Shown here: positions 30,209 to 55,706 of the stretch, in pieces | How positions within the stretch are numbered: position 1 is the first letter of the stretch | Layout of the letters: each line of letters opens with the position of its first letter | From: Betaproteobacteria bacterium | GTDB taxonomy: Bacteria; Pseudomonadota; Gammaproteobacteria; Burkholderiales; UBA3065 | Assembly: GCA_009927815.1 (NCBI GenBank) | Contig: RFMI01000032.1 | Span: forward strand, 1 to 55,706 | Direction: 5' to 3' | DNA length: 55,706 nucleotides | The notes under the pieces: model-generated | What the model was told of the DNA's origin: nothing | What the model saw: the letters and a program-made list of their open reading frames with translations, nothing else | The model's database searches: none | Position numbers and translations under genes: made by a program

Positions 30209-31219
30209 ATGGATCACAAGAAGGATAGACGCGAGTTCCTTCAGCTCACCGGCAAAGCCGGATTGTCGACTATCGTCGGCAGCGCTGCAGGCATCAACCT
30301 TGGGGTGTTCGATCTGGCGCACGCACAACCGGGCAATAAAGTTGCCCCGTTCCGCTTCGCCATGATCACCGATTCGCACCTTTTCAGCGGCGACGACCAC
30401 AAGTTCGACCGCCAGCTCGAAGACGCTGTCGAGCAGGTCAACAGCATGGAAATCAAGCCTGATTTCGTGCTGTACGGCGGCGACATTGCCCAGAACGGCA
30501 CCGAGGATCAACTCGTCAAGGGCCGCAAGTTGCTCTCCAAGCTCGACACCAAACTGGTGTTGATTCCCGGCGAGCACGACTGGTATGTCGATATGGGCGC
30601 GGCTTGGAAAGGCATGTTCGGTCAGGACCACTGGTCGTTCGACCACAAGGGCGTGCACTTCATCGGCATGAATTCGATTTTGGTGAAGGATTTCTGGACC
30701 GCCAAACAGATGTCCCCGCGTGAGCGGATGGCCGCCATGGAGATGCTCGAGGGACCGATCGGCGGCCTCTGGGGCGTCGGTGAGAAGCAACTCGAGTGGC
30801 TCAAGAAAGACGTCGCGAAGCTGTCTCCGGACACGCCCATCGTCACCTTCACTCACTCGCCGCTGTGGGACTACTACCCGCGCTGGAACTTCCAGACTGT
30901 CGATGGGCCGCAGATCCGCGAGATTCTCTCCAAGTTCGAGAACTTCACGTCGATCCACGGCCACGTGCACCAGACGGTCTACAACAAGGTCGGCAACATG
31001 ACTTCGATCGGCGCGATGAGCACGTCGTGGCCGTGGCCGTACCCGCCGGTCACGTTGGCGTATCCGGGTTCGCAAATGAACCGTCACGATCCGGGCAACG
31101 AAGTCGATGGCATGGGCACCCTGGCGGTGAGCGTCAAGGCCGGTGGCCAGAAGCTCGCCGAGTACCAGCCTTTCGGCGATTCGCTAACCCCGTACCTTAA
31201 AAAGGGCCTCAAGGCCTAA
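30209..31219 (+). CDS. Tat-exported metallophosphoesterase (calcineurin-like, Icc/CpdA-related)
   Basis: RBS GGAGGAG; Tat motif DRREFLQ; metal motifs DSH, GGD, PGEHD, TH, HGHVH. Confidence 0.88.
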   Translation: MDHKKDRREFLQLTGKAGLSTIVGSAAGINLGVFDLAHAQPGNKVAPFRFAMITDSHLFSGDDHKFDRQLEDAVEQVNSMEIKPDFVLYGGDIAQNGTEDQLVKGRKLLSKLDTKLVLIPGEHDWYVDMGAAWKGMFGQDHWSFDHKGVHFIGMNSILVKDFWTAKQMSPRERMAAMEMLEGPIGGLWGVGEKQLEWLKKDVAKLSPDTPIVTFTHSPLWDYYPRWNFQTVDGPQIREILSKFENFTSIHGHVHQTVYNKVGNMTSIGAMSTSWPWPYPPVTLAYPGSQMNRHDPGNEVDGMGTLAVSVKAGGQKLAEYQPFGDSLTPYLKKGLKA

Positions 31220-31232
31220 TCGGGAGACAGAT

Positions 31233-31742
31233 ATGAAAGCGACATTCAAGCCTACGCTCGCCATCGCCGTCCCCCTGTTTGTTCTCACCGCTTTGGCGTC
31301 TGGAAGCGCCTCGGCGCGTGAGCCATTCAGCAAGGAGGAATTGGACAAGCAGCAAGCCAAGTTGCTCGAGCTGGTGGAGCAGGGCTACAACCTCTGGCAC
31401 GGTAGCAACCCCGAGATGTCTGGCAACGGTCTGGCTTGCGGAAATTGCCACCCGGATGCCGGCGCCTCTAACCCGCAGACCTTCCCCAAGTACATCCAAA
31501 ACATGAACCGGGTTGTGCAGTGGGGCGAAATGGTCAACTGGTGTATCCAGAATCCGCAAGCGGGTAAAGCACTGGCGCTCGAAAGTGAGGACATGACGGC
31601 GATGTATGCCTACGCCATGAACCTTCACCGCGGCTTGCCGATCCAGCCGGGACTGGCTTCACTGCAGACCAAGCCGGTTCCTGTTAAGTACGGCAAGGGT
31701 TTCCCGTCGAAGCCGTCCGGCATTGGTTTTGACACCAAGTAA
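31233..31742 (+). CDS. Monoheme c-type cytochrome, SoxA/TsdA-like
   Basis: Signal peptide; GNGLACGNCH heme motif; downstream FPKY and MVNWCIQNP with a conserved-looking extra Cys. Confidence 0.75.
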   Translation: MKATFKPTLAIAVPLFVLTALASGSASAREPFSKEELDKQQAKLLELVEQGYNLWHGSNPEMSGNGLACGNCHPDAGASNPQTFPKYIQNMNRVVQWGEMVNWCIQNPQAGKALALESEDMTAMYAYAMNLHRGLPIQPGLASLQTKPVPVKYGKGFPSKPSGIGFDTK

Positions 31743-32325
31743 GTCGGTGTGGCTGCCAGTTGTTATGGCAGCCATGTTGCCGGCTGTCGCAGTACACGCG
31801 CAGTCCTGCGTCGACCAGTTCGTCCCGAATTCGTCGATGCAGGATTTCGCAGACCACGGCGACGGCACCCTGACCGACCGGCGAACGGGGCTCACCTGGT
31901 CGCGATGTTCGGCCGGACAGTCTTGGCAGAGCGGGTCTTGCGTTGATAAGGCCGCCGAATTCGATTGGACGGCCGCCGAGTCGTATGTGCGCGAGGTCAA
32001 CGAGCGGGGTGATCTGTTTTACGCCGATTGGCGTTTGCCGAATCTGCGTGAGCTGGCAACCATCAGTGAAGTGAACTGCCAGGATCCCCGCATCAACCTC
32101 GAGGCGTTCCCGGGTACGGCTCAAGGATTTTATTGGACGGCGTCCCGAAAGCTGATCGAAGGCCCGGAACTCGCTGCGTTTGCGATGAGTTTTGGTGCTG
32201 AGGGGATGCGCGTCAGTCGTTCGGTCGAGACCCACCACGTGCGACTGGTTCGTCGTAGCGACCATGCGCTGTCGGACTCAGGAGCACAGTTTCAGATTCT
32301 TACATCCATCAGGAGCATTCGATGA
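31723..32325 (+). CDS. DUF1566 (Lcl C-terminal-like) secreted protein
   Basis: DGTLTDRRTGLTWSRC, DWRLPNLREL, FYWTAS, HVRLVR motifs; start uncertain. Confidence 0.8.
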   Translation: MVLTPSKSVWLPVVMAAMLPAVAVHAQSCVDQFVPNSSMQDFADHGDGTLTDRRTGLTWSRCSAGQSWQSGSCVDKAAEFDWTAAESYVREVNERGDLFYADWRLPNLRELATISEVNCQDPRINLEAFPGTAQGFYWTASRKLIEGPELAAFAMSFGAEGMRVSRSVETHHVRLVRRSDHALSDSGAQFQILTSIRSIR

Positions 32326-32639
32326 AGCAATCCCGCAGAACCTTCATGATCCGGGCAGTGGCCGGTGTCGCCGCAGCGACCGTGCTGCCGCAAGTCGCTC
32401 ACGCGACGACGGAAAAACTGTCCGAATCCGATCCCTATGCCAAGTCGATGGGCTTCAAGCTCAACCACGAGGAAGTTGATCCGGCCAAGTACAAGCGTTG
32501 GACAGCCGAGCAGCAGTGCAATAAGTGCCAACTCTGGGGTGGTAAGGCCGGAGATGAATACGGCGAGTGTTCGTTTTTTGAGCGCTACACACCCTCTGGT
32601 GGCTGGTGCAAGAATTTCAAGGCGGTCAAAAAAGCCTGA
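32322..32639 (+). CDS. High-potential iron-sulfur protein (HiPIP)
   Basis: Tat signal SRRTFM; LSESDPYAKSMGF; four Cys in CNKC..C..GWC pattern. Confidence 0.9.
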   Translation: MKQSRRTFMIRAVAGVAAATVLPQVAHATTEKLSESDPYAKSMGFKLNHEEVDPAKYKRWTAEQQCNKCQLWGGKAGDEYGECSFFERYTPSGGWCKNFKAVKKA

Positions 32640-32667
32640 CGCTTTTCAACGCGCTAAACGTTTCTCC

Positions 32668-32695
32668 CTGTGGGCCTCGATGTCGAGGCCCACAG
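32668..32695. terminator. Perfect inverted repeat after HiPIP (likely terminator)
   Basis: CTGTGGGCCTCGA-TG-TCGAGGCCCACAG, 13-bp arms; weak T tail. Confidence 0.6.
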
Positions 32696-32706: not shown

Positions 32707-32750
32707 TGTCATTTTTTATAGACATTAATGATAGTCAGAGTAAAGTGACA
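32707..32750 (+). promoter_or_regulatory. Tandem PpsR boxes over the putative pufC promoter
   Basis: TGTC-N10-GACA at 32707-32724 (perfect TGT-N12-ACA) and AGTC-N10-GACA at 32733-32750, 8 bp apart; overlap TAGACA (32719-32724) and TAAAGT (32741-32746). Confidence 0.8.
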
Positions 32751-32849: not shown

Positions 32850-33995
32850 ATGATGCGCATCTTTGCCGTCTTGGCCGCCGGCCTTGCAGGCGTGCTGTTC
32901 TTCGCTTTCATGATCACGGACTCGACGCAGGCAGTGCAGCGCGGTCATCGAGGTACAGGCATGGCGCTGATGTACAAGCCCGCAGCACTGGAAGCGCTCA
33001 AGCCTCTCAATGCCATCCCCGAAGCCGAAGACCCGGCCGACCCGCCGATCATCGGGCAGCCGACAATCACCGAGCGCTACAAGAACATCCAGGTTCTTAA
33101 AGATTTGAGCGTCAACGAACTCTCGCGGGTGATGGCTGGATTCGTGGCTTGGGTCGCGCCCGAAGAAGGCTGCGTCTATTGCCACAACACGCAGAACATG
33201 GCGTCGGATGAGAAGTACACCAAGGTCGTCGCGCGGCGCATGCTGCAGATGACTCGAACAATCAACAATGAGTGGACCCAGCATGTGGGTTCTACGGGCG
33301 TGACTTGCTGGACTTGCCACCGTGGCCAACACGTACCCAGCGGGGACTGGTTCTCTGCGGCGCCGCAGAAGGCGCGAATGCTGGGCAACCGCGACGGCCA
33401 GGACACGGCGGGCGTTGCGACCAATGGCAATACCTCTTTGCCGTACGACCCCCTGACCACCTACCTCACCACGCCCGATGCGAATGTTCGCGTTCAGGGC
33501 ACGCGGCCGCTGGCGGGTAGCAACCCAACCTCAGTGAAAAAGGCTGAGCACACCTACGCGTTGATGATCTACATGGCGAAATCTTTGGGTGTGAACTGTG
33601 ATTATTGCCACAACACCCGGGCCCTCGCGCGATGGGAACAGAGTTCACCGCAGCGCGTCACGGCTTGGTATGGCTTGCGCATGGTGCGCAGCCTCAACAT
33701 CAACTACCTGGTTCCGCTAAAGCCCTTGTTCCCGGAATATCGGTTGAGCCCCGAGGGTGATGGCCCTAAGGTTGCCTGTGCGACGTGCCACAAGGGCACC
33801 TACAAACCACTGTACGGGGTCAGCATGAAGGCTGACTGGCCGGAGTTCTGGCGGCGCGGCGGTGTCGACACCAGCAATGAGGTCCGCACCCTCCCAGTCA
33901 ACCATCCTCGGCCCGATCCGCAGCTGGCCAAGGCGGGCTTGCCGGACTGGGAGACGGGTTACGCGCCTGAGCCAATCCCAGCCGAGGAAGACTGA
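32850..33995 (+). CDS. pufC: Photosynthetic reaction-centre tetraheme cytochrome c subunit (stand-alone)
   Basis: QRGHRGTGM, YKNIQVL, WVAPEEGCVYCH, YTKVVARRMLQMT, HVGSTGVTCWTCHRG, SLGVNCDYCHNTR, KVACATCHKG..KPLYG; ATG 32850. Confidence 0.93.
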   Translation: MMRIFAVLAAGLAGVLFFAFMITDSTQAVQRGHRGTGMALMYKPAALEALKPLNAIPEAEDPADPPIIGQPTITERYKNIQVLKDLSVNELSRVMAGFVAWVAPEEGCVYCHNTQNMASDEKYTKVVARRMLQMTRTINNEWTQHVGSTGVTCWTCHRGQHVPSGDWFSAAPQKARMLGNRDGQDTAGVATNGNTSLPYDPLTTYLTTPDANVRVQGTRPLAGSNPTSVKKAEHTYALMIYMAKSLGVNCDYCHNTRALARWEQSSPQRVTAWYGLRMVRSLNINYLVPLKPLFPEYRLSPEGDGPKVACATCHKGTYKPLYGVSMKADWPEFWRRGGVDTSNEVRTLPVNHPRPDPQLAKAGLPDWETGYAPEPIPAEED

Positions 33996-34012: not shown

Positions 34013-35098
34013 CTAGTTTGACAGGGTCGTGGCCGTCGGGTAGTCGGTGTAACCGGCCTCGTTGCCACCGTAGTAGCTCGCCGCGTCGCCGCCGGCCAGG
34101 GCAATGCCGAGCCGGACCCGCGTGACCAGATCGGGATTGGCGATGAACGGCCGACCAAAAGCCACCAGATCGGCGCGACCGCCACGCAGAGCCGCTGCGG
34201 CCTTGTCGGGCGTGTAGTTGCAACAAGCCATGTAGGTGCCACCAAACGCCGAACGCAGCTTGGCGTAATCGACGCGCGCTTGCGCCAGGTCGTTGCGGTC
34301 TTCGCCCTCAACCACGTGCAGATACTCGACGCGCCCTTTGAGCATGGCGGCCACCGCCGAGAACAGTGCTTGCGGGTCGCTGTCGTCAATGTCGTTGAAC
34401 GTGTTCTCCGGCGAGATGCGCACGCCCACGCGGCCTTCGCCGGCCACTGCTGTAACCGCACTGACCACTTCGTCCAGCAAACGCACGCGGTTGGCGATCG
34501 TGCCGCCGTACGCATCGGTGCGATGGTTCGTTTTGTCGCGCAGGAACTGGTCGAGCAGGTAACCGTTGGCGGCGTGAATCTCGACACCGTCAAAACCGGC
34601 GGCAAGCGCGTTGCGCGCCGCTTGGGCGTAGGCCTCGACCAGCGGCGGAATCTCGGCGAGTTCGAGCGCTCGCGGCACCGGCAGCGGCTGAAATCCATCG
34701 AAGGTGTAGGCTTGGCCATCAGCAGCGATGGCCGACGGCGCCACTGGCGCTACGCCGCCCGGCTGGAAGCTCGCATGCGAGATGCGGCCGACGTGCCACA
34801 GTTGCAGAAACATCCGGCCGCCGGCGGCATGAACCGCTTCGGTCACCACAGTCCAGCCGTTGATCTGGGCTGGACTGTGGATGCCGGGCGTCAGGATGTA
34901 GCCCTGACCCTCTGGCACGATCTGCGTCGCTTCGGAGATGATCAGGCCGGCACTGGCGCGCTGTGCGTAATAGAGGGCTGTCAGCGGGGTGACTGCGTTG
35001 TCGCGGTTGGCACGGCAGCGGGTCAGTGGCGCCATGACGATGCGATTGGGCAGCTGCAAGGCGCCGAGGCGCAGCGGCGAGAACAGGTCAGTGCTCAT
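34013..35098 (-). CDS. Old yellow enzyme family alkene reductase (NemA-like)
   Basis: NRIVMAPLTR, YYAQRASAGLIISEAT, QLWHVGRISH, EIHAANGYLLDQF, AFGRPFIANPDL, GYTDYP. Confidence 0.93.
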   Translation of the reverse strand: MSTDLFSPLRLGALQLPNRIVMAPLTRCRANRDNAVTPLTALYYAQRASAGLIISEATQIVPEGQGYILTPGIHSPAQINGWTVVTEAVHAAGGRMFLQLWHVGRISHASFQPGGVAPVAPSAIAADGQAYTFDGFQPLPVPRALELAEIPPLVEAYAQAARNALAAGFDGVEIHAANGYLLDQFLRDKTNHRTDAYGGTIANRVRLLDEVVSAVTAVAGEGRVGVRISPENTFNDIDDSDPQALFSAVAAMLKGRVEYLHVVEGEDRNDLAQARVDYAKLRSAFGGTYMACCNYTPDKAAAALRGGRADLVAFGRPFIANPDLVTRVRLGIALAGGDAASYYGGNEAGYTDYPTATTLSN

Positions 35099-35772: not shown

Positions 35773-38019
35773 ATGGTCGGCAAGACCTGGCAAGAGAGCC
35801 TCCTGCGTCTCTTGCTCTCGATTTCCGAAAAGGTCGCGGCGCTGGATTCGCTCGACGACATCCTGAACCTTCTGGTCGAGGTGAGCACCGAGCAACTGGG
35901 CGCCGACCGTAGCACGCTGTTCCTGAACGATCCCGGTACCAACGAGCTGTACTCGCGGGTGGCGCAAGGCAATCTCAGCCAAGAGATTCGGCTGATGAAC
36001 GATCGCGGCGTGGCCGGCTGGGTCTATCAAAAGGGCGAGCCAGCGATCATTCACGATGCCTACAAGGACAAGCGCTTCGACAGCTCGGTTGACCAGCGCA
36101 CCGGCTACACCACGCACAGCATCCTTTGCGTACCGATCCGCAACGCCAAGGGTGAGTTGATTGGCGTTGCGCAGGCGCTGAACAAGAAGGACGGAAAATT
36201 CAGCAAGGAAGACCAGGAGTTGCTCGCCGCCATCACCACCCAAGGTGCCTTGGGTCTGGAGAGCATGGCGCTGGTCGAGCGGATGAAAAAGATCCGCGAG
36301 CAGGAACTGGAGTTCTTGGAGGTGGTGAGCGACCTCACCTCCGACATCAAGATCGACTCGCTGCTCAACAAGGTGATGGCCGAAGCGACGCGCATGCTCA
36401 ATGCCGAGCGCAGCACGTTGTTTCTAAACGACGAAAAGACCCAGACGCTGTGGTCGCAGGTGGGACAGGGGCTCGGCTCGCTGCAGATCCGCCTGCCCAA
36501 CACGGCGGGCATCGCCGGCGCAGTGTTTAGCAGCGGCAAGACCATCAACATCCCGCACGCGTACGCCGATCTGCGCTTCAACCCGGCCTTCGACAAGAAA
36601 TCCGGCTTCTTCACCCGCAGCATCCTCTGCGTGCCGATCATCAACCAGAAGGGCAAGGTGATCGGCGTCACCCAGGTGCTGAACAAAAAGAATGGCGTAT
36701 TCACGCTTGAGGACGAGTCGCGCCTCAAGGCGTTTACTGCACAGATCGCTATCTCGCTGGAAAACGCCAGCCTGTTTGCCGACGTGCAGAACATGAAGAA
36801 CTACAACGAGTCGATGCTCGAATCGATGAGCAACGGCGTGATCACGCTCGACGACGAAGGGCGCATCGTCACCTGTAACACGGCGGGTGCCAAGATTCTG
36901 CGTCTGCGGGTCGAGGAGATCATTGGTACCAAGGCGGAGGTGTTGTTCAACGAGGCCAACGCTTGGATCATGGACAAGATCCGCAAACTGGCCGACGACC
37001 CGACGCCGGACATCACGATGGACGCCGAGATGACGGTGGTCGGCGAGACGGTGTCGGTCAACAGCACCATCCTGCCGCTCTCCAACACCGAGGGCGAGCA
37101 CCTCGGCAGCATGTTCATGTTCGAAGACATCTCGTCCGAGAAGCGGATGAAGTCGACGATGTCGCGCTACGTCGATCCGGCGATCGCCGACCAGTTGCTG
37201 TCGAAGGGCGGCGAGGCGATGGGCGGCCAAAGCGTCAACGCGACGCTGCTGTTCTCCGACATCCGCGGCTTCACTACGCTCACCGAGGCGCTGGGCCCGC
37301 AGGCGACCGTGACCCTGCTCAACGAATACTTCGAGATCATGGTCGATTGCATCACCCGTGAGGGCGGGATGCTCGACAAGTTCATCGGCGACGCCATCAT
37401 GGCGGCCTTCGGCATCCCGCTGGCGCACGACGACGACGAAGACCGTGCGGTACGGGCGGCGGTGGCCATGATCAGCGAACTGCAAACGTGGAACACCGAG
37501 CGCGAAGCCGAGGGCAAGCTGCCGGTCAACATCGGTATTGGGCTCAACACCGACATCGTGGTGAGCGGAAACATCGGCTCCAAGAAGCGTATGGACTACA
37601 CCGTGATCGGTGACGGCGTGAACCTGGCCGCACGTCTGGAGTCCGCGTGCAAGCAGTACTCAGCGAAGATCCTGATCAGCGAGTTCACGCAGGCCAAGCT
37701 GCGCGGCATCTACCGCATGCGCGAGGTCGATCTGGTGGTGGTGAAGGGCAAGACCCAGCCCGTGAGCATCTACGAGGTGCTGGATTACCACACGTCCGCG
37801 AGCTTCCCCAACATGATGGATGTGCTGGGTAACTTCACCGAAGGCCTGTCACGCTACCGTGCCGGCAACTGGGACACCGCCATCGCCTCTTTTCAGAAAG
37901 CGCTGTCGCTCAATCCCAAGGACAAACTCACCGGCACCTACATCGAGCGTTGCGAGCTGATGAAGGCGCATCCACCCGAAGGCGAGTGGGACGGCGTCTG
38001 GGTGATGACCGACAAATAA
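35773..38019 (+). CDS. Class III adenylate cyclase GAF-GAF-PAS-cyclase-TPR (true start may be 35697 via a frameshift)
   Basis: Two GAF domains with NKKDG..F..ED and NKKNG..F..ED; PAS; LFSDIRGFT, DKFIGDAIMA, DYTVIGDGVNLAARLE; TPR-like tail ending WDGVW. Confidence 0.92.
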   Translation: MVGKTWQESLLRLLLSISEKVAALDSLDDILNLLVEVSTEQLGADRSTLFLNDPGTNELYSRVAQGNLSQEIRLMNDRGVAGWVYQKGEPAIIHDAYKDKRFDSSVDQRTGYTTHSILCVPIRNAKGELIGVAQALNKKDGKFSKEDQELLAAITTQGALGLESMALVERMKKIREQELEFLEVVSDLTSDIKIDSLLNKVMAEATRMLNAERSTLFLNDEKTQTLWSQVGQGLGSLQIRLPNTAGIAGAVFSSGKTINIPHAYADLRFNPAFDKKSGFFTRSILCVPIINQKGKVIGVTQVLNKKNGVFTLEDESRLKAFTAQIAISLENASLFADVQNMKNYNESMLESMSNGVITLDDEGRIVTCNTAGAKILRLRVEEIIGTKAEVLFNEANAWIMDKIRKLADDPTPDITMDAEMTVVGETVSVNSTILPLSNTEGEHLGSMFMFEDISSEKRMKSTMSRYVDPAIADQLLSKGGEAMGGQSVNATLLFSDIRGFTTLTEALGPQATVTLLNEYFEIMVDCITREGGMLDKFIGDAIMAAFGIPLAHDDDEDRAVRAAVAMISELQTWNTEREAEGKLPVNIGIGLNTDIVVSGNIGSKKRMDYTVIGDGVNLAARLESACKQYSAKILISEFTQAKLRGIYRMREVDLVVVKGKTQPVSIYEVLDYHTSASFPNMMDVLGNFTEGLSRYRAGNWDTAIASFQKALSLNPKDKLTGTYIERCELMKAHPPEGEWDGVWVMTDK

Positions 38020-38496: not shown

Positions 38497-38497
38497 G

Positions 38498-39030: not shown

Positions 39031-39032
39031 GC

Positions 39033-41612: not shown

Positions 41613-41613
41613 G

Positions 41614-43756: not shown

Positions 43757-43770
43757 GGCGGAAAGGCCTA

Positions 43771-45204: not shown

Positions 45205-45301
45205 TCGGGTAGATTTGAATTGGTTGTAGTGCACGAGGCGCGCGAGCTTTGTCGGCGCGGTGTCCAGAAAATCCGGCATTTTGAACATCCAGGGTAAGGC
45301 C

Positions 45302-49613: not shown

Positions 49614-51723
49614 GACCTTCGCCGGGGTGCGCCCGCGTTCAGCAGCGAGCGCCGTCGCGGCGTTGATGGGTCTCGCGGTCCAACCGCTGTGGGCGGACGA
49701 GGTCGCGCCAGCGCTTGGCCCCAACGACCACAACCCGGCCTATATTGCGCGCAAGACGGTCGAGCAGATCCAGGTGGTGGCTCCCATCCTGCGCCTCCGG
49801 CTCGAGCCAGATCTGGGTTCTTTGGTGGTTGGCGAGGCCGATCGGGGTCAGCTGTTCACGGTGCTCGAGCAGCGTGCTGACTGGTTCCGCGTGCGTATCA
49901 AGTCAGATCCCGAGACCTCGGCTTGGGCTTTGCGTGAGCCGGCTGAGTACGGCGACTCCACCTTCGACCTCATCTACGCCGCTGGCGACACCGGCTTTGC
50001 CGCCGAGGCGATTGGCGCCACTGAGCCGGGAACCCCGGCCATCGACGCGGCGCGACCCGCTGTTCCGCGTCGCGTGGTTACGCTGCCGCCGATCGACCCC
50101 GAGCAACTGCCGCCCCCGCAGGCCAATTTGCCGCGAGAGTCGGTGCCCATCCCCGACCGCTGGCGGCTGATGCAGGCACTTGGTTTCAAGTTCCCGTGGT
50201 ACGACCCGTACAACCAGAATGTGCTGAAGGGCGATATTCCGGTGCACGAGATCGGCGAGGAGTGGTTCTTCACCTTCACTGGCATCTCGGACTCGCTGGC
50301 GGAATTCCGTTCGACGCCGTTGCCCGTGTCGCAACAGATCGGCTTTCGCCCGGACGCCAACAACATCTACGGCCGCTATGACCAGCGGATCCTCGCGCAG
50401 AACCTGATCTTGAGTTTTGGGCTGGTCAAAGGCAACACAACCTACAAGCCGCCCGAACTGGAATTCCGGTTCGTCCCGGTGATCAACTACGTCAACGCAC
50501 GCCTGCCCGAGTCGGGTTTGTTGCGGGTTAATCCGCAAGAAGGCCTGTCGCGCGAGACCAGCTTCGTCGGCATTCAGGAAGCGTTTGTCGACTACCACTT
50601 GCGCAACGTGTCGGATCGCTACGACTTCGATTCGCTGCGCGTGGGCATTCAGCCCTTCACCAGCGACTTCCGCGGATTCCTGTTTCAGGACACGCAGTTT
50701 GGCGTGCGCCTGTTCGGCAACCGCCACAACAACGTCTACCAGTACAACCTGGCGTGGTTCCGACGCGTCGAGAAGGACACCAATTCGGGGCTTAACGACA
50801 TCACCCGACGTCTGCGGGACGATGACATTTTTGCTGCCAACGTCTACCGCCAAGACTTTCCGTTCACGGGCATGACGTCGCAGGGCACGGTTATCCACAA
50901 CCGCAACAATGAGGATTCGTTCCGCTACGACACGAACGGCTTCTTGGTGCGGCCGTCGCTGCTGGGCGACGCAAGGCCGCGCAAGTACCAGGTGACCTAC
51001 CTCGGGGCGACTTTTGACGGCCACACCGGCTTCGTGTTGCCCAAGCTGCGTCTTAACGTCAGCAGTTCGACCTATTTGGCGCTGGGCCATGACGACCACG
51101 GCGCGATCGCCGAGAAGCCGCAGGACATCCGCGCCTTCTTCCATGCCACCGAGGTGTCACGAGACTTCAGCTGGATCCGCCTTCGGGGCAGTTTCCTCTA
51201 CGCCAGCGGCGACAAGAACCCGTACGACGGTCGTGCGACTGGGTTCGATGCCATCTTCGAGAACCCCCAATTTGCCGGTGCCGACACCAGCTATTTCATT
51301 CGCCAAGGCATTCCGCTGATTGGCGGGGGCGGGGTTGCCCTGTCGGGCCGCAACGGCTTGCTGGTGTCCCTGCGCTCGAGCAAAGACCAAGGACAGTCAA
51401 ACTTCGTCAACCCAGGGCTACTTTTGCTGGGCATGGGCGCCGACTTTGACGTCAAACCGGAGCTGCGCCTGACTGCCAACGTTAACCACTTGCGCTTCGA
51501 CGAGACCGCCGTGTTGGGCGCCCTGCGCAATGAGCGCAACCCTGACAACTCGATTGGCATGGACTATTCGGTTGGCGCTCAGTGGCGGCCGTTCTATAAC
51601 CAGAACGTGATCATCAATGCCTCAATGTCGATGCTCTCGCCAGGCCAGGGCTTGAAAGACCTCTATGGCGACCGCAAGACACCGTTCTACTCTGGCTTCA
51701 TCAACGCCATCCTGACGTACTGA
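49597..51723 (+). CDS. Putative outer-membrane beta-barrel with N-terminal SH3b-like domain
   Basis: Signal peptide (ATG 49597); LRLRLEPD..GQLFTVLEQRADWFRV SH3b-like; Pro-rich linker; alternating beta-strand pattern; C-terminal FINAILTY. Confidence 0.7.
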   Translation: MSATSRTFAGVRPRSAASAVAALMGLAVQPLWADEVAPALGPNDHNPAYIARKTVEQIQVVAPILRLRLEPDLGSLVVGEADRGQLFTVLEQRADWFRVRIKSDPETSAWALREPAEYGDSTFDLIYAAGDTGFAAEAIGATEPGTPAIDAARPAVPRRVVTLPPIDPEQLPPPQANLPRESVPIPDRWRLMQALGFKFPWYDPYNQNVLKGDIPVHEIGEEWFFTFTGISDSLAEFRSTPLPVSQQIGFRPDANNIYGRYDQRILAQNLILSFGLVKGNTTYKPPELEFRFVPVINYVNARLPESGLLRVNPQEGLSRETSFVGIQEAFVDYHLRNVSDRYDFDSLRVGIQPFTSDFRGFLFQDTQFGVRLFGNRHNNVYQYNLAWFRRVEKDTNSGLNDITRRLRDDDIFAANVYRQDFPFTGMTSQGTVIHNRNNEDSFRYDTNGFLVRPSLLGDARPRKYQVTYLGATFDGHTGFVLPKLRLNVSSSTYLALGHDDHGAIAEKPQDIRAFFHATEVSRDFSWIRLRGSFLYASGDKNPYDGRATGFDAIFENPQFAGADTSYFIRQGIPLIGGGGVALSGRNGLLVSLRSSKDQGQSNFVNPGLLLLGMGADFDVKPELRLTANVNHLRFDETAVLGALRNERNPDNSIGMDYSVGAQWRPFYNQNVIINASMSMLSPGQGLKDLYGDRKTPFYSGFINAILTY

Positions 51724-51745: not shown

Positions 51746-54700
51746 GTGTTCAAGCTGCCCCTTCGATCCCTGCCGACCAACGCCCTGATGCGCGGAGCCC
51801 TGTTGCGCGGCGCGTCCGTGCTGGCCTTGCTAGTGCCGGCGTTGCTGGGCGCAGCTTTGATGTACGAGCCGGCGAGTGCCTCCGAACGCAAGCTCACCGA
51901 GCGTCACTACGTGATGGCCCCCTCCGCGCCCAAGGCGCAGACCTGGGCGCAGGCCAAATCGAAGTCTGATGGCTGCATGACCTGCCACACCGAGACCGAC
52001 CAGCACACCATGCACGCCAACCCTGGCGTGGTGCTGGGCTGTACCGACTGTCACGGTGGCGACAACAGCATCCGCCGTGCTGAGAAGGGTCCCGAAGCCG
52101 AGCGCAAGCACCCGGCCTACGAGCGGGCGATGGAACTGGCGCACATCCTGCCGCGCGACGAGCATCTGTGGCAGGGTTCGCGCAACCCGGAGGGCAGCTA
52201 CGCTCGTCTCAACAAGGAGCACGCGGCTTTCGTTCGCTTCATCAACCCGGGCGATTTGCGCGTGGCGCGCGAAGCCTGCGGCGCCTGCCATCTGCCGATC
52301 ATCCAGGCGCAAGAACGCAGCTTGATGAGCACGTCCAGCATGCTCTGGGGCGGCGCTGCCTATAACAACGGCATCCTGCCGTTCAAGCGCTACATGCTCG
52401 GCGAGGCCTACACGCAAGACGGCACCGCAGCGGCCATCGTCAACCCGGTCAAGCCTGACGAAGATCTTTACGTCTTCAAGGGCGTGCTCGAGAAGCTCTA
52501 CCCGCTGCCGGCCTGGGAGACCATCCCGCCGGGCGATATCTTCCGTGTGTTCGAGCGTGGCGGTCGCGTCATCAACAGCAGCTTCCCCGAAATCGGCCTG
52601 CCCAACAGCAGCGGCACGTTGCAAAAGCTCGACGAGCCGGGCCGTCCCGACATCAAGCAGAGCAACCGCGGCCCGGGAACTGGCAACCGCATCTCGGTGC
52701 CGGTCATCAACCTGACCAAAACTCGCCTCAACGACCCGCACCTGTGGTTCCTCGGCACCAACGACAACCCGGGTGACTACCGCTCGTCCGGTTGCACCGC
52801 GTGCCACGTGGTCTACGCCAACGATCGTCAGCCCGAACACAGCGGGCCCTACGCGCAGTTCGGCAACATGGGCCGCACGCAGACCAAAGATCCGACTATC
52901 CCCAGGGATGAGTCCGGACATCCGCTCAAGCACGAGTTCACTCGTGCGATGCCGAGTTCGCTGTGTATGAACTGCCACATGCACCAGCCGAACATTTACA
53001 TCAACTCGTTCTACGGCAACATCCAGTACGACTACGAGCCGGACGCGCCGCGCATGTTCCCGGCCAAGCAGCACTATCCGACCGACGCCGAGATTCGCGA
53101 GGTCAACCAGCGCAATCCGGAAGAAGCGGTGATTCGCGGCAATTGGCGCGACCGTGACTTCCTCAACGACCTTTGGCTCAAAAACGGCGAGATGAAGGAC
53201 ACCCAGTTCGCCGACTACCACGGCCACGGCTGGGCGTTCCGCGCAGTGTTCAAGCGCAACCGGAAGGGCAATCTGCTGGACAAAGTTGGCAACATCGTCA
53301 GCGACGATGATCCGGACAAGTTCAAGAAGGCGGTGCACATGGCCTCGATCCACATGGATCTGGGTATGCACTGCGTCGACTGCCACTTCTCGCAAGACAT
53401 GCACGGCAACGGCCACATCTATGGCGAAGTGGCCGCCGCGGTAGAGATCGATTGCGCCGACTGCCACGGCACCGCCAAGAACTACCCGACCCTGCACACC
53501 AGCGGTCCGGCGTCGCGTCCGGGCGGCATGGACCTGACCCTGCTCAAGACCCAGGATGGTCGCAAGCGCTTCGAGTGGCGCGACGGCAAGCTGTATCAGC
53601 GCGCTGCGCTCGACCCCAACAAAGAGTGGGAAATGTCGCTGGTGAAGGACACGGTCAATCCCAAGCACCCGCAGTACAACGAAAAGGCGGCGCGGGCCAA
53701 GCTCATGGCTGCCGGTGAGGACGGCCGCAACGGCAAGTGGGGTCAGGGTGTCGACAAGCTGGCCCACGACAACGACAAGATGTTGTGCTTCACCTGCCAC
53801 TTGAGCTGGACCACCAGTTGTGCGGGCTGTCACTTGCCGATTCAGGCCAACTGGAAAACCGAACGCAACCACTTTGAGGGCGGCGAGACACGCAACTACG
53901 CCACCTACAACGTGCAAGTCGCGCGCGACGACATGTTCTTCCTTGGCAAGCACGGCCCGGTCAAGAACAGCCGCATCGCACCGTTCCGCTCGAGTTCAGC
54001 GTTGGTGCTGTCCTCCATGAACAGTAACCGCGAGCGCATCTACTACCAGCAGCCGCCGATCGCTGCCAGCGGCTTCTCCAGTCAGGCGTTTGCGCCGCAT
54101 TACCCGCACACCGAGCGCAAGGAAGAGACCAAGACCTGTACCGACTGCCACGTCTCGCGTGACAACGACAACAACGCAATCATGGCGCAGCTGCTGTTGC
54201 AGGGTACTAATTTCGTCAACTTCGTCGGCCGCTATGCTTGGGTTGGCGCCGAGAAGGACGTCGAGTCGGTGGGTGTGACCGAGTGGGATGAGCCGCAGGC
54301 GGTGCTGGGTTCCTACCTGCAGAAGTACGCCTACCCCGACTGGTATGCGGAGCACCAGGCGGCCGGTCGCGAGATCGTTGACACCCCGCGCCACGAAGCG
54401 GCCAATCACTTGGCGACGCCGAGTGGGGATGCGGCGCGCTGTCTGCAGATGCGCGGCGAGTACCTGTTCGTTGCCGAGGGCAAGGGTGGCTTCCGCGTGT
54501 ACGACATCGCCGGCAACGGCAACAAGGGTGTGAGCCAGCGCATCATCACTGCGCCGTATTCGCCGCTGGGGCAAGACACGCATGTGCCGTCGAAGAACGC
54601 CACCTGCGTTGCGCTGCCAACCAACCAGCCGATTGCGCCGACGCGCAACGAGGGCGACCTGATGCGCAAGGTCAACCTGGAGCAGCCGTTCCATCCGATC

Positions 54701-55618
54701 TACCACTACGCCTTCGTGGTCGATGCCGAGGAGGGTCTGTACGCAGTCAACCTCGACACCTTCGCCGACGGTGAGGCGCGCAACAATTTCCTCAAGCGTG
54801 CCGTGACGTGGAATCCGAATGGCATGCTGAACGGCGCGCGGCACATCGTTGTGGCGGGCCACTACGCCTACATCACCACGCCGAAGGGTCTTGAGATCGT
54901 CGACCTTGACGACCCGCTGCACCCCAAGCCCCTCGCCTCCATCCCGCTGAACGACGCCCGGGCGAGCGCGGTGCAGTTCCGCTATGTCTACGTGACGACT
55001 GCGGAAGGCTTGCGCGTGGTCGACATCACCAATATGAAGCCGAAGCTTTTGCCGGCGGTGGTACCGCTTAAGGATGCGCGCCGCGTCTACCTGGCCCGTA
55101 CCTATGCCTATGTGGCGGCCGGCGCCGAGGGTCTGGCGATCGTCGACATCGAGAAGGCCGATAAGCCGCGCGTGTATCAAATGTTCGACGCCGACGGCAA
55201 GATCAACGATGCCCAGGACGTGATTGTCGGCAGCACCAACGCATCGTTGTTCGCCTACATCGCTGATGGCCGCAATGGCCTCAAGGTGCTGCAACTGACC
55301 TCACCTGAAAGCCAGCCCGGCTTCTACGGTTTCTCGCCAGAGCCCAAGCCTGAGCTGATCGCTTGGCGCAAGACCACCTCGCGGGCCTTGGCGCTGAGTA
55401 AAGGTCTCGACCGTGACCGTGCCGTGGACGAGACCGGTGGGCAGATCGCCATCGTCGGCCGTATCGGCGCACGGCCGTTCACCCGCAAGGAGATGGACAA
55501 GATGTACTTGAATCCCAAGGGTGAGCTGTGGACGGTAACCGACCGCGGCCAGTCGGGCGACTATGTGCCGCGCAAGGCGCCAACCGCCGGGGCCAGTGAC
55601 AAACGAGGCAAGCCATGA
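51746..55618 (+). CDS. Large exported decaheme cytochrome c with C-terminal LVIVD-repeat beta-propeller
   Basis: 10 CxxCH: CMTCH, CTDCH, CGACH, CTACH, CMNCH, CVDCH, CADCH, CFTCH, CAGCH, CTDCH; LVIVD-like repeats YLFVAEG..FRVYDI, YAYITT..LEIVDL, YVYVTT..LRVVDI, YAYVAAG..LAIVDI. Confidence 0.88.
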   Translation: MFKLPLRSLPTNALMRGALLRGASVLALLVPALLGAALMYEPASASERKLTERHYVMAPSAPKAQTWAQAKSKSDGCMTCHTETDQHTMHANPGVVLGCTDCHGGDNSIRRAEKGPEAERKHPAYERAMELAHILPRDEHLWQGSRNPEGSYARLNKEHAAFVRFINPGDLRVAREACGACHLPIIQAQERSLMSTSSMLWGGAAYNNGILPFKRYMLGEAYTQDGTAAAIVNPVKPDEDLYVFKGVLEKLYPLPAWETIPPGDIFRVFERGGRVINSSFPEIGLPNSSGTLQKLDEPGRPDIKQSNRGPGTGNRISVPVINLTKTRLNDPHLWFLGTNDNPGDYRSSGCTACHVVYANDRQPEHSGPYAQFGNMGRTQTKDPTIPRDESGHPLKHEFTRAMPSSLCMNCHMHQPNIYINSFYGNIQYDYEPDAPRMFPAKQHYPTDAEIREVNQRNPEEAVIRGNWRDRDFLNDLWLKNGEMKDTQFADYHGHGWAFRAVFKRNRKGNLLDKVGNIVSDDDPDKFKKAVHMASIHMDLGMHCVDCHFSQDMHGNGHIYGEVAAAVEIDCADCHGTAKNYPTLHTSGPASRPGGMDLTLLKTQDGRKRFEWRDGKLYQRAALDPNKEWEMSLVKDTVNPKHPQYNEKAARAKLMAAGEDGRNGKWGQGVDKLAHDNDKMLCFTCHLSWTTSCAGCHLPIQANWKTERNHFEGGETRNYATYNVQVARDDMFFLGKHGPVKNSRIAPFRSSSALVLSSMNSNRERIYYQQPPIAASGFSSQAFAPHYPHTERKEETKTCTDCHVSRDNDNNAIMAQLLLQGTNFVNFVGRYAWVGAEKDVESVGVTEWDEPQAVLGSYLQKYAYPDWYAEHQAAGREIVDTPRHEAANHLATPSGDAARCLQMRGEYLFVAEGKGGFRVYDIAGNGNKGVSQRIITAPYSPLGQDTHVPSKNATCVALPTNQPIAPTRNEGDLMRKVNLEQPFHPIYHYAFVVDAEEGLYAVNLDTFADGEARNNFLKRAVTWNPNGMLNGARHIVVAGHYAYITTPKGLEIVDLDDPLHPKPLASIPLNDARASAVQFRYVYVTTAEGLRVVDITNMKPKLLPAVVPLKDARRVYLARTYAYVAAGAEGLAIVDIEKADKPRVYQMFDADGKINDAQDVIVGSTNASLFAYIADGRNGLKVLQLTSPESQPGFYGFSPEPKPELIAWRKTTSRALALSKGLDRDRAVDETGGQIAIVGRIGARPFTRKEMDKMYLNPKGELWTVTDRGQSGDYVPRKAPTAGASDKRGKP

Positions 55619-55706
55619 CAACCGCCATTCATTCCATCCTGACGTCCGTACTGGGCGCTGCTGCGGCGCTGATGCTGGTTGCAGCGCCGGTGCAGGCCCG
55701 GACGAC
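55615..55706 (+). CDS. Exported protein, 5' end (partial)
   Basis: ATG overlaps the previous stop; MTTAIHSILTSVLGAAAALMLVAAPVQA looks like a Sec signal peptide; runs off the window. Confidence 0.6.
   Translation, partial: MTTAIHSILTSVLGAAAALMLVAAPVQART

What the first reader, a model, noticed from the sequence alone, without database searches (positions are those of the whole stretch)
30209..55706. The 25-kb block could form a light-driven electron-uptake chain into the reaction centre
Seen: within about 7-30 kb of the photosynthesis cluster lie a HiPIP, a PpsR-boxed PufC, a TsdA/SoxA-like cytochrome, a full ccm operon and the two-decaheme/barrel operon. The block carries 25 CxxCH motifs (1+4+10+10). 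Known: HiPIP reduces PufC in purple bacteria, and R. palustris pioABC combines a decaheme, a porin and a HiPIP for phototrophic Fe(II) oxidation. Inference: the block supplies donor-oxidising modules, a shuttle, an RC entry point and maturation machinery. Co-location alone does not prove a shared pathway.
Basis: inference. Interest (0 to 1): 0.75.

Follow-up and report, generated by a model that had tools for sequence, protein, structure and literature searches.

The report
Second reaction-centre cytochrome cassette beside unrelated multihaem operon
The block is not one light-driven electron-uptake chain: it holds a small conserved gene set that probably feeds electrons to the photosynthetic reaction centre, the cell's general cytochrome-maturation genes, and a widespread multihaem operon that mostly occurs in non-photosynthetic bacteria.

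Summary
The single-pathway reading fails its own refutation test.

(1) The multihaem operon is the first five genes of a seven-gene operon that continues on another contig. It has its own cytoplasmic FAD/NAD(P)-FeS-cNMP subunit and a two-b-haem membrane subunit. This scan has met the operon before on other DNA; it resembles PCC4/ptd. In samples of the class and the order, 12 of 13 and 11 of 12 holders outside the genus have no pufLM. HiPIP was found in 2 of 10 tested.

(2) Inside the genus the two units lie about 94-100 kb apart in two species, and each occurs without the other.

(3) The ccm operon is the assembly's only System I copy.

(4) The window's PufC is a second paralog; the canonical pufBALMC is on another contig.

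A conserved, apparently undescribed cassette did emerge: Tat-metallophosphoesterase, His/Cys monohaem SoxA/TsdA-like cytochrome, DUF1566 protein, HiPIP and PufC2, behind PpsR-type boxes. It occurs in several freshwater phototrophic Burkholderiales.

The parts
30212..31219 (+). Tat-exported metallophosphoesterase ('Mphos', 335 aa), first gene of the cassette
   Evidence: PF00149. Twin-arginine leader DRREFLQ. Metal-site motifs invariant in 16 of 16 homologs (A1). Followed directly by the SoxA-like gene in 9 of 10 fetched order loci.
31233..31742 (+). Monohaem SoxA/TsdA-family cytochrome c with a probable His/Cys-ligated haem
   Evidence: PF21342 44.4 bits against 27. PDB matches to the SoxA N-domain (E 7.6e-7) and to TsdA domain 1 (E 3.5e-6), with Cys104 aligned to the TsdA/SoxA cysteine. 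CxxCH and Cys104 invariant in 16 of 16 (A2).
31723..32325 (+). Secreted Lcl_C (DUF1566) domain protein; start uncertain (the Atlas record starts at residue 15)
   Evidence: PF07603 93 bits. Conserved in the cassette across lineages. Atlas hits are Lcl_C clusters only. No PDB sequence relative.
32322..32639 (+). HiPIP with Tat leader; the only HiPIP found in the genome
   Evidence: PF01355. One match in the whole assembly. Four cluster cysteines conserved.
32668..32695 (+). Terminator-like hairpin after the HiPIP gene
   Evidence: 12-pair stem, 9 G-C pairs.
32707..32750 (+). Two PpsR/CrtJ-type boxes 26 nt apart, overlying a promoter-like site (32719-32746)
   Evidence: The same 26-nt tandem lies upstream of PufC2 in 7 of 11 loci. 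A like tandem lies at the bchF promoter, 6803 and 6830.
32850..33995 (+). PufC2: second reaction-centre-type tetrahaem cytochrome, with an N-terminal membrane helix and no lipobox
   Evidence: NF040706 420 bits. 52.5% identical to the canonical PufC on contig C49. Falls in a separate clade with SH-aLRT 99.
34013..35098 (-). Old-yellow-enzyme family flavoprotein (a neighbour, not a member)
   Evidence: PF00724. It stays in place in G006, where the cassette is missing.
35773..38019 (+). GAF-GAF-PAS-nucleotide cyclase-TPR protein (a neighbour)
   Evidence: It travels with the cassette in G002/G003 and with ccm in G000/G006.
38065..45087 (-). System I cytochrome c maturation operon ccmI-AB(fused)-C-D-E-F-G-H
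   Evidence: No second copy of ccmC/E/F/H/I in the assembly.
45260..46165 (+). Inner-membrane ferric-reductase-like protein, gene 1 of the seven-gene operon
   Evidence: Weak PF01794 hit. Two WX3HX13H motifs and SGXXG are read in the sequence printed. These are the motifs He et al. describe for PCC3/PCC4 inner-membrane proteins.
46168..47760 (+). Membrane-anchored decahaem cytochrome (MHC1)
   Evidence: 10 CxxCH. TIGR03508 only 32.7 bits against 192.2. No significant PDB relative.
47757..49613 (+). Secreted protein with two HbpS/GlcG-like domains
   Evidence: PF03928, two stretches. The least conserved operon member within the genus, 47-70%.
49597..51723 (+). Outer-membrane beta-barrel protein (signal peptide; C-terminal ...ILTY)
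   Evidence: No Pfam barrel family over its cut-off and no PDB sequence relative.
51746..55618 (+). Decahaem cytochrome fused to an LVIVD beta-propeller (MHC2), the best conserved member
   Evidence: 10 CxxCH. PF08309. 7572 database proteins at E <= 0.001 among 8000 candidates scored, with the listed best 120 at 68-92% identity.
55615..55706 (+). Start (signal peptide) of the sixth gene, cut by the contig end. It continues as the 4 CxxCH + CX4CH cytochrome on contig C50, followed by the FAD/NAD(P)-2x cNMP-4Fe4S protein.
   Evidence: The same gene order is contiguous in G002, G003 and G006.

Best explanation
The 25-kb block holds three independent units that lie side by side in this small-genome freshwater betaproteobacterial phototroph.

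Unit A (30212-33995) is an accessory donor-side cassette for the reaction centre. PufC2 is a membrane-anchored paralog of the reaction-centre tetrahaem subunit. It is expressed from its own promoter under PpsR-type boxes, and it most likely takes the place of the canonical lipoprotein PufC on a share of the reaction centres. The cassette's HiPIP, the only one in the genome, is its matched soluble donor. HiPIP is in turn reduced by a periplasmic two-protein enzyme made of a Tat-exported metallophosphoesterase and a monohaem cytochrome that keeps the His/Cys haem of SoxA/TsdA. The substrate is unknown; a reduced sulfur compound is my best guess.

Shown: gene content, conservation, the paralog clade, the boxes, and restriction of PufC2 to pufLM genomes. 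Inferred: every electron-transfer step.

Unit B (38065-45087) is the cell's general System I ccm operon.

Unit C (45260 to the contig end, plus two genes on C50) is the widespread seven-gene PCC4/ptd-like multihaem operon. It has a cytoplasmic FAD/NAD(P)-FeS-cNMP protein, a two-b-haem membrane protein, 25 c-haem sites and an outer-membrane barrel. That build suggests electrons move from cytoplasmic NAD(P)H outwards, not inwards to the reaction centre. Its function remains untested.
For: Independence of unit C.
- Seven-gene order confirmed in three genus-mates. Its last two genes lie on C50.
- Class sample: MHC2 in 13 of 400 genomes, pufLM in 10 of 399, both in 1.
- Order sample: MHC2 in 17 of 350 (12 outside the genus), pufLM in 39 of 350. 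Outside the genus, both occur only in G529.
- HiPIP in 2 of 10 tested holders, on other contigs.
- Named holders are Janthinobacterium, Duganella, Limnobacter and Undibacterium. That these are non-phototrophs is recalled.
- The cassette marker Mphos is in 0 of the 12 non-genus MHC2 holders.
- Within the genus: G002 and G003 have the units about 94 and 100 kb apart. G006 has the operon, and an intact tatA|OYE junction without the cassette. G005 has the cassette, and no MHC2 was found there.
- Eight operon loci from other families show no HiPIP, PufC, Mphos or SoxA-like gene nearby.

Unit A.
- Canonical pufBALMC is on C49.
- PufC2 forms a clade of 12 (SH-aLRT 99) apart from the canonical PufC of the same genomes.
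- HiPIP lies within 4 kb of PufC2 in 12 of 14 loci; the other two are cut by contig ends.
- In L043-L045 and L059 the cassette abuts pufLMC.
- 5 of 5 further holders have pufLM.
- Tandem boxes in 7 of 11 loci overlie the promoter-like site.
- The SoxA/TsdA cysteine is invariant.
- HiPIP is named as the natural partner of A. vinosum TsdA (PMC6879331, passages).
- SoxY and SoxZ lie inside the cassette in G586.
- Mphos and the SoxA-like gene are adjacent in 9 of 10 loci.
- Complex prediction for this pair: weak support. Score 0.38, best of 3 controls 0.00. The mark was reached by 116 of 157 solved complexes and 2 of 215 mismatched pairs, but at 0.60 or under by only 18 of those 157 and by both mismatches. 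The runs agree in at least 4% of contacts, and the partner pLDDT is at least 71.
- Contigs from four lake-water RNA libraries cover parts of units A, B and C.

Unit B: no second ccm copy.
Against: - No experiment shows that PufC2 binds the reaction centre or that HiPIP reduces it.
- The Mphos/SoxA-like pair also occurs without HiPIP or PufC2 in genomes without pufLM: 10 of the 12 non-genus holders. So its link to the reaction centre is lineage-specific.
- The arginines at -4 and +8 of the TsdA cysteine are Met and Lys here (read from the alignment).
- 4 of 5 other holders keep a canonical SoxB and SoxZ. G448 has neither SoxB nor SoxZ yet has Mphos, the SoxA-like gene and LclC. A SoxYZ-dependent or SoxB-replacing role is therefore not general.
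- L039 and L040 (Polynucleobacter) show no boxes, and L037 and L085 show only one, by my criterion.
- ccm genes sit beside or inside the multihaem operon in the genus and in 2 of 8 loci of other families. Units B and C may therefore be functionally associated rather than fully independent.
- One phototroph outside the genus in each sample does carry the operon (G289, G529).
- Incomplete genomes can hide genes.
- The tree is the quick version with a midpoint root.
- The outward direction of electron flow in unit C is inferred from its domain content only.
Confidence: 0.7

Rival explanations
1. The decahaem/barrel operon takes electrons from an extracellular donor such as Fe(II). It passes them to HiPIP and then to the PufC copy and the reaction centre, in the manner of PioABC.
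For: All parts are present within 25 kb in this genome and in G006's relative arrangement. The genus keeps both units in at least four species. PCC4-type clusters were proposed as Fe(II)-oxidation conduits by He et al. (PMC5566968, passages). Two phototrophs outside the genus carry the operon.
Against: - The units are about 94-100 kb apart in G002 and G003, and each is found without the other.
- 12 of 13 and 11 of 12 holders outside the genus lack pufLM. 8 of 10 lack HiPIP.
- The operon encodes its own cytoplasmic FAD/NAD(P)-FeS partner.
- No PpsR-type tandem lies upstream of the operon; there is only a single one-mismatch box at 45261.
- MHC1 fails the DmsE/MtrA-family cut-off, 32.7 against 192.2 bits. 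The barrel has no MtrB/PioB-type hit.
Confidence: 0.07
2. PufC2 is not a reaction-centre subunit. The cassette is a respiratory side branch in which the Mphos/cytochrome enzyme reduces HiPIP and a free membrane-anchored tetrahaem, and these feed a terminal oxidase.
For: In G039 the Mphos/SoxA-like pair is followed by cbb3-type oxidase genes. The pair occurs in genomes without pufLM. NCBIfam holds a PufC-like family for non-phototrophs, which PufC2 also touches (NF033196). The organism lacks RuBisCO (not found), so it has little need for net photosynthetic electron input.
Against: - PufC2 itself was seen only in pufLM genomes: the genus, 5 of 5 others, and G586.
- It scores far above the PufC equivalog cut-off, 420 against 150.
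- The cassette abuts pufLMC in one lineage.
- PpsR-type boxes sit on its promoter.
Confidence: 0.15
3. PufC2 and HiPIP are simply an alternative donor pair for cyclic electron flow under other oxygen or light conditions. The Mphos, SoxA-like and DUF1566 genes are unrelated neighbours.
For: L039 has HiPIP-PufC2 alone, with 5 kb of upstream sequence showing none of the other three. In this window a terminator-like hairpin and a separate promoter split PufC2 from the four upstream genes. The complex prediction gave only weak support.
Against: All five genes stay together in at least four lineages, in two different gene orders. That is hard to explain without a shared function. HiPIP is transcribed with the three upstream genes here, not with PufC2.
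Confidence: 0.15

Closest known systems
HiPIP to tetrahaem PufC to reaction centre, the donor path of purple bacteria (Rubrivivax gelatinosus, Allochromatium vinosum; recalled; only the listing and abstract of PMC10991045 were seen)
   Same: A HiPIP gene beside a PufC-family tetrahaem with all four CxxCH, in a genome with pufLM.
   Different: The PufC here is an extra paralog, 52.5% identical. It lies away from pufLM, has a membrane helix instead of the lipobox of the canonical copy, and has its own PpsR-type promoter. No paper on a second pufC was found.
TsdA thiosulfate dehydrogenase of A. vinosum, with HiPIP as partner (PMC6879331, passages)
   Same: The SoxA/TsdA cytochrome domain, with the cysteine aligned to the catalytic haem's ligand, and HiPIP encoded alongside.
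   Different: It has one haem, not two, so there is no haem-2 domain. Arginines near the cysteine are not kept. It is always paired with a Tat-metallophosphoesterase. The substrate is unknown.
SoxAX-SoxB-SoxYZ thiosulfate oxidation
   Same: A SoxA-family cytochrome lies next to a metallophosphoesterase-superfamily protein. That SoxB belongs to this superfamily is recalled. SoxY and SoxZ lie inside the cassette in G586.
   Different: There is no SoxX. Mphos does not match the SoxB model: the whole-genome search found no match. The SoxA equivalog cut-off is not reached, 42.8 against 110. G448 has the trio without SoxYZ, and 4 of 5 holders also keep a canonical SoxB.
PioABC / MtrAB / MtoAB porin-cytochrome conduits
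   Same: A decahaem cytochrome gene and an outer-membrane barrel gene in one operon, with a HiPIP elsewhere in the block.
   Different: MHC1 scores 32.7 bits against the 192.2 cut-off of the DmsE/MtrA family. The barrel has no family or PDB match. HiPIP is not in the operon. The operon adds an NAD(P)-type flavo-FeS protein, an FRD-like b-haem protein, a double HbpS-like protein and a decahaem-propeller fusion.
PCC4 (He et al. 2017, PMC5566968, passages) and ptdABCDEFG (Elbon et al., bioRxiv 10.1101/2023.11.21.568154, outline and passages); function unknown
   Same: A porin, several periplasmic multihaem cytochromes and an FRD-like membrane protein with two WX3HX13H motifs and SGXXG. Also FAD/NAD(P), cNMP-binding and 4Fe-4S parts.
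   Different: The haem counts are 10, 10 and 4+1, not 4, 5 and 10. A decahaem-LVIVD propeller stands where PtdA (a pentahaem with a beta-sandwich) would be. There is an extra HbpS-like gene, and the PtdC-like and PtdE-like parts are fused. I made no sequence comparison with the published proteins. The supplements of the preprint are closed and may hold relevant tables.

Membership tests
PufC (reaction-centre tetrahaem cytochrome) | Matches the PufC equivalog model over its cut-off | tested here: met
   NF040706 420.1 bits against 150; PF02276 403 bits.
PufC (reaction-centre tetrahaem cytochrome) | Four CxxCH haem sites | tested here: met
   Positions 156, 201, 298 and 358 of the ORF.
PufC (reaction-centre tetrahaem cytochrome) | Encoded with pufLM | tested here: not met
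   pufBALM plus another pufC are on contig C49. In L043-L045 and L059 the paralog does lie next to pufLMC.
PufC (reaction-centre tetrahaem cytochrome) | Bound to the reaction centre | not testable with these tools
   Needs purification or cryo-EM.
HiPIP | Family model over its cut-off and four cluster cysteines | tested here: met
   PF01355 50.3 against 22. The cysteines are conserved in 9 sequences.
SoxA/TsdA cytochromes | SoxA-TsdA cytochrome domain with a cysteine ligand | tested here: met
   PF21342 44.4 against 27. Cys104 aligns with the TsdA/SoxA cysteine and is invariant in 16 of 16. Ligation itself is not testable here.
SoxA/TsdA cytochromes | SoxA equivalog score, or the dihaem TsdA architecture | tested here: not met
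   TIGR04484 42.8 against 110. There is one CxxCH only.
SoxB | Matches the SoxB equivalog model | tested here: not met
   No match to TIGR04486 anywhere in the genome at E <= 0.001. The PDB relatives of Mphos are Rv0805, Icc and GpdQ-type phosphodiesterases.
MtrA/PioA/DmsE decahaem family | Family model over its cut-off | tested here: not met
   TIGR03508 32.7 against 192.2. No significant PDB match.
MtrB/PioB barrel | Sequence match to the family; 26-strand barrel (strand number recalled) | tested here: not met
   Pfam hits are only SH3_3 and a sub-threshold Alginate_exp. A profile of 11 homologs finds no PDB chain at E <= 1. Strand number was not determined, because the structure job could not be sent.
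PioABC | HiPIP encoded in the operon with the decahaem and the barrel | tested here: not met
   HiPIP lies 12.6 kb upstream in another unit, and about 94-100 kb away in G002 and G003.
PCC4 / ptd | Inner-membrane protein with two WX3HX13H motifs and SGXXG (He et al.) | tested here: met
   Read in the 301-aa sequence printed.
PCC4 / ptd | Porin plus three periplasmic cytochromes of 4, 5 and 10 haems | tested here: not met
   The counts here are 10, 10 and 4 CxxCH + 1 CX4CH.
PCC4 / ptd | FAD/NAD(P) oxidoreductase and cNMP-binding 4Fe-4S proteins in the cluster (Elbon et al.) | tested here: met
   Present as one 813-aa fusion on C50.
PCC4 / ptd | Sequence homology to the published Ptd/PCC4 proteins | not tested
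   No published sequences were at hand.
System I cytochrome c maturation | ccmA-I present | tested here: met
   In the window, ccmC and ccmG carry single-base differences from RNA-library contigs.

The most novel reading that the evidence does not exclude
Abundant freshwater phototrophic Burkholderiales (this genus, a Polynucleobacter isolate, several Burkholderiaceae MAGs) carry a second, PpsR-gated reaction-centre cytochrome subunit with its own HiPIP. They also carry a new kind of two-subunit periplasmic oxidoreductase: a Tat-exported binuclear-metal phosphoesterase-fold protein plus a single His/Cys-haem cytochrome. Together these would let light pull electrons from an inorganic donor, probably a sulfur compound, by a route distinct from both Sox and TsdA.
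Probability: 0.25. Interest if true: 0.75.

Novelty: new variant of a known kind. Interest (0 to 1): 0.5.

Why it matters
Aerobic anoxygenic phototrophs of this kind are common in lakes. Contigs from lake-water RNA libraries cover this locus.

A second reaction-centre cytochrome with a dedicated HiPIP and a donor enzyme would mean that these photoheterotrophs can switch the electron-input side of their photosystem. It would also mean they may use light to oxidise an inorganic compound, which changes how their energy budget and sulfur turnover are modelled.

The Mphos/His-Cys-cytochrome pair would be a new enzyme type.

On the negative side, the result warns against reading the widespread PCC4/ptd-like operon as a phototrophic iron-oxidation conduit merely because it lies near photosynthesis genes.

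Tried and rejected
- The idea that the cassette replaces a missing SoxB/SoxAX and works on the orphan SoxYZ of contig C131. G000 fits it: no SoxB, no other SoxA, and an orphan soxYZ with a GGCGG end. But 4 of 5 other holders keep a canonical SoxB and SoxZ, and G448 has neither. I rejected it as a general rule.
- Read laying returned contigs only, so depth cannot rank genes and co-expression could not be judged. The lack of cover over 30209-32876 in X1-X3 says nothing.
- Atlas look-ups of Mphos and LclC returned only their Pfam family names.
- PDB sequence searches found nothing significant for the barrel profile, MHC1, MHC2 or LclC.
- Paper searches for 'pufC2', for 'second/two/additional pufC', 'pufC paralog/homolog' and 'pufC-like', and for pufC+HiPIP+Polynucleobacter found no description of the paralog. 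'LVIVD'+'multiheme' found one unrelated preprint.
- Window-wide enrichment of TGT-N12-ACA is not significant.
- In the tree, my automatic label put one Rhodobacteraceae canonical PufC (L067) among 'C2'. It is a canonical copy next to pufLM.

Full report
WHAT IS IN THE WINDOW

The window is the whole of contig C34 of a 1.76-Mb, 140-contig assembly rated 94% complete, with about 64% G+C.

- Positions 207-23452 hold part of a photosynthesis gene cluster: crtB, a crtI-like gene, ppsR, a B12-binding regulator, bchFNBHLM with lhaA, puhA, acsF, puhE and dxs.
- The finding's block then holds a Tat-exported metallophosphoesterase (Mphos, 30212-31219) and a monohaem SoxA/TsdA-family cytochrome (31233-31742).
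- Next come an Lcl_C/DUF1566 protein (31723-32325), a HiPIP (32322-32639) and a PufC-family tetrahaem cytochrome (likely start 32850, end 33995).
- Then an old-yellow-enzyme gene on the other strand, a GAF-GAF-PAS-cyclase gene, and ccmI-AB-C-D-E-F-G-H on the minus strand (38065-45087).
- From 45260 there is an operon of a ferric-reductase-like membrane protein, a decahaem cytochrome, a protein with two HbpS-like domains, an outer-membrane barrel and a 1290-aa decahaem cytochrome with LVIVD repeats.

THE PufC IS A SECOND COPY

The genome has two PufC genes. The canonical one follows pufB, A, L and M on contig C49 and carries a lipobox. The window's copy is 52.5% identical and starts with an uncleaved-looking hydrophobic helix. 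The genome has one HiPIP, the one in the window.

THE MULTIHAEM OPERON IS CUT BY THE CONTIG END

A new gene starts at 55615 with an ATGA overlap and a signal peptide. Contig C50 begins, in reverse, inside a cytochrome with four CxxCH and one CX4CH. This is followed by an 813-aa protein with FAD/NAD(P)-binding, two cNMP-binding and 4Fe-4S domains.

In three genus-mates the order is contiguous: FRD-like, decahaem, HbpS-like, barrel, decahaem-LVIVD, pentahaem, flavo-FeS. So the operon has seven genes and the join of C34 to C50 is well supported.

The membrane protein carries two WX3HX13H motifs and SGXXG (sequence). These are the features He et al. describe for the inner-membrane proteins of their PCC3/PCC4 clusters, which they compare with the two-b-haem ferric-reductase domain (PMC5566968, passages).

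Earlier notes of this scan had already met the same operon on other DNA and pointed to PCC4 and to ptdABCDEFG. I read the relevant passages of both papers.

- The architecture is similar to both.
- It is not identical. The haem counts differ, a decahaem-propeller fusion stands in place of the pentahaem PtdA, there is an extra HbpS-like gene, and the flavoprotein and FeS-cNMP parts are fused.
- Both papers state that the function is unknown.

DOES THE OPERON GO WITH PHOTOTROPHY, HiPIP OR PufC?

The decahaem-LVIVD protein has 7572 database relatives at E <= 0.001 among the 8000 candidates scored. The 120 listed are 68-92% identical. The named ones come from Janthinobacterium, Duganella, Limnobacter, Undibacterium and a Moraxellaceae MAG. 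That these are not phototrophs is my recollection.

Even sample of the class:
- 13 of 400 other genomes have the protein.
- 10 of 399 scored have pufLM.
- One genome, G289, has both.
- Three of the 13 holders are under 90% complete. One, G079, is flagged unpublished; without it the count is 12 of 399.

Sample of the order:
- 39 of 350 other genomes have pufLM, 6 of them in the genus.
- 17 of 350 have the protein, 5 of them in the genus.
- Outside the genus only G529 has both. So 11 of 12 holders lack pufLM, and 32 of 33 phototrophs lack the operon.

I tested 10 of those 12 holders for HiPIP, leaving out G529 and G677. Two have one, on a contig other than the operon's.

Eight operon loci from seven genomes of other families show the same gene set, with no HiPIP, PufC, Mphos or SoxA-like gene in the 10-40 kb fetched.

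INSIDE THE GENUS (seven species)

- G002 carries PufC2 at 100 kb and the decahaem-LVIVD gene at 2-6 kb of one contig.
- G003 carries them at 116 kb and 12-16 kb of one contig.
- G006 (88% complete) has parA-tatA-OYE-cyclase-ccm-operon. Only about 200 bp lie where the five cassette genes would be. No Mphos or second PufC was found anywhere in it.
- G005 (91% complete) has the cassette, and no decahaem-LVIVD match was found.

The adjacency seen in the window is therefore one of two arrangements within a single genus, and each unit exists without the other. Only co-expression remained untested.

THE ccm OPERON

No second copy of ccmC, E, F, H or I is in the assembly, so this is the general maturation system. 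I did not search for System II.

The operon does sit divergently next to the multihaem operon in all four genus members where the junction is visible. ccm genes also lie beside or inside the operon in G253 and G275, from other families. A loose association with this haem-rich operon is possible.

THE CASSETTE

A scan of one genome per species with PufC2 returned 35 loci.

- Besides four genus-mates, PufC2-type genes appear in L039, L040 (title: Polynucleobacter sp. CS-Odin-A6), L041, L043-L046 and, in part, L059.
- A further one appears in G586 of the order sample.
- L040 has the window's order: Mphos, SoxA-like, LclC, HiPIP, PufC2.
- L043-L045 and L059 have PufC2, Mphos, SoxA-like, LclC, HiPIP, running head-on into pufL-M-C(canonical).
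- HiPIP lies within 4 kb of PufC2 in 12 of 14 loci. The other two, L041 and L046, are cut by contig ends.
- L039 has only HiPIP-PufC2.
- All five further genomes tested have pufLM, and so does G586.

I built a quick maximum-likelihood tree of 42 PufC sequences. Before building I dropped 4 rows: three duplicates of the same records and one fragment. The tree puts the 12 cassette-linked copies in one clade (SH-aLRT 99, branch length 0.44). That clade stands apart from the canonical copies of the same genomes. The careful search did not finish, and the root is a midpoint.

REGULATION

In the window a terminator-like hairpin (32668-32695) follows the HiPIP gene. After it the only promoter-like site (32719-32746) is overlaid by an exact TGTC-N10-GACA box and a one-mismatch box, 26 nt apart.

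- A pair with the same 26-nt spacing lies upstream of PufC2 in 7 of 11 loci, from three lineages.
- L037 and L085 show one box. L039 and L040 show none.
- A similar pair lies in the ppaA-bchF intergenic region.
- That this is the PpsR/CrtJ operator pattern is recalled knowledge.
- Upstream of the multihaem operon there is only a single one-mismatch box.

THE DONOR ENZYME

The SoxA-like protein matches the haem-1 domains of Rhodovulum SoxA and A. vinosum TsdA. Its Cys104 stands at the position of their cysteine.

In TsdA this is the ligand of the catalytic haem, and mutating it abolishes activity. HiPIP is named as the enzyme's natural partner (PMC6879331, passages).

- CxxCH and Cys104 are invariant in 16 sequences down to 30% identity.
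- The protein has only this one haem.
- The residues aligned with two TsdA arginines near the cysteine are Met and Lys.

Mphos has a twin-arginine leader in all homologs and invariant metal-site motifs.

In the order sample Mphos was found in 16 of 350 other genomes: 4 in the genus and 12 outside.

- In 9 of 10 loci fetched, a SoxA-like gene follows it directly. This is 8 of 9 without the unpublished G031.
- Only 2 of the 12 outside holders have pufLM, so the pair is a wider enzyme that some phototrophs have coupled to HiPIP and PufC2.
- In G586, SoxY and SoxZ lie between LclC and HiPIP. In G039 the pair is followed by cbb3-type oxidase genes. Both fit an enzyme that oxidises something and hands electrons to high-potential acceptors.

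A complex prediction for the pair gave weak support only.

- Score 0.38; best of 3 controls 0.00.
- The mark was reached by 116 of 157 solved complexes and 2 of 215 mismatched pairs.
- At 0.60 or under it was reached by only 18 of those 157 solved complexes and by both mismatches.
- The runs agree in at least 4% of contacts, and the partner pLDDT is at least 71.

Against a Sox-like mechanism:

- Mphos does not match SoxB.
- 4 of 5 other holders keep a canonical SoxB.
- G448 has the trio without any SoxZ.

The substrate is therefore open.

EXPRESSION

Contigs from four lake-water RNA libraries lie on 26-29 of 30 bins of 30209-50208.

- Long pieces with few differences cover Mphos/SoxA-like and LclC/HiPIP (run X4), PufC2 (runs X1 and X2), ccm, and the first operon genes.
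- These are contigs, so they show presence in RNA libraries only. They do not show level, strand or co-expression.

VERDICT

The proposed single chain is not supported for the decahaem operon, and ccm is general machinery. The HiPIP/PufC/SoxA-like part is supported as a unit, and it turns out to be more specific and more interesting than proposed.

- Confidence in the three-unit reading: about 0.7.
- Confidence that HiPIP feeds PufC2 on the reaction centre: about 0.6.
- Confidence in a sulfur substrate: about 0.3.

Claims that rest partly on genomes flagged unpublished are the class tally (G079), the Mphos tally and the adjacency count (G031). None changes in substance without them.

Noticed in passing
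window 38625, 39125 (ccmG/ccmF end) and 42253 (ccmC): Contigs of all four RNA libraries carry one extra base after 38625 and after 39125. Two of them lack one base at 42253. In the window ccmC is split over two frames and ccmG matches only part of the Redoxin model. These are probably single-base assembly errors, or strain differences, in the MAG.
   Followed up: partly
window 42392-43756 (-): ccmA and ccmB are one 454-aa ORF. It aligns as a single piece at 72-76% identity in three genus-mates, so the fusion looks real.
   Followed up: partly
L006 (contig C50) 3518-6211; also the G275 and G195 operon loci: A CHASE2-nucleotide cyclase lies just beyond the flavo-FeS gene, which has two cNMP-binding domains. 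Cyclase homologs sit within a few kb of the operon in G275 and at both G195 loci. This hints at cyclic-nucleotide control of the operon.
   Followed up: no
G275:C77 (L072/L073) and G253:C1 (L070): ccm genes are interleaved with, or lie near, the seven-gene operon in two other families.
   Followed up: partly
window 47757-49613: The double HbpS-like gene is far more divergent within the genus (47-70%) than its neighbours; MHC2 is 88-92%. RNA contigs of runs X1 and X2 depart from the window exactly at 47761 (table 7).
   Followed up: no
L086 (G039:C1) 8643-13526: In this phototroph the Mphos/SoxA-like pair is followed by COX1 and FixO-cytochrome c genes of a cbb3-type oxidase.
   Followed up: partly
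L094 (C24) 7740-9688 and L096 (C41) 10320-14074: Two fused SoxY-SoxZ genes are each followed by a metallo-beta-lactamase-fold gene. One of them lies next to a PQQ dehydrogenase and a cytochrome c.
   Followed up: no
L037, L045 (record titles): Two freshwater betaproteobacterial MAG contigs bear titles naming Klebsiella pneumoniae and Bordetella parapertussis. Their content (puf genes, the cassette) shows the names are wrong.
   Followed up: no
window 31723-32325: By predicted structure, one Atlas cluster near this Lcl_C protein (54 members) fuses an Lcl_C domain to a cytochrome c7-type multihaem domain. This is a hint that the domain can work with redox proteins.
   Followed up: no
window 30000-30212 against L036 1478-3345: Genus-mates have about 1.8 kb between the tatA/B-like gene and Mphos, where the window has about 200 bp. 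I did not examine the content.
   Followed up: no
L054 6973-7257: A more distant HiPIP (37% identity) lies directly downstream of a canonical-type PufC in another Burkholderiales MAG.
   Followed up: no
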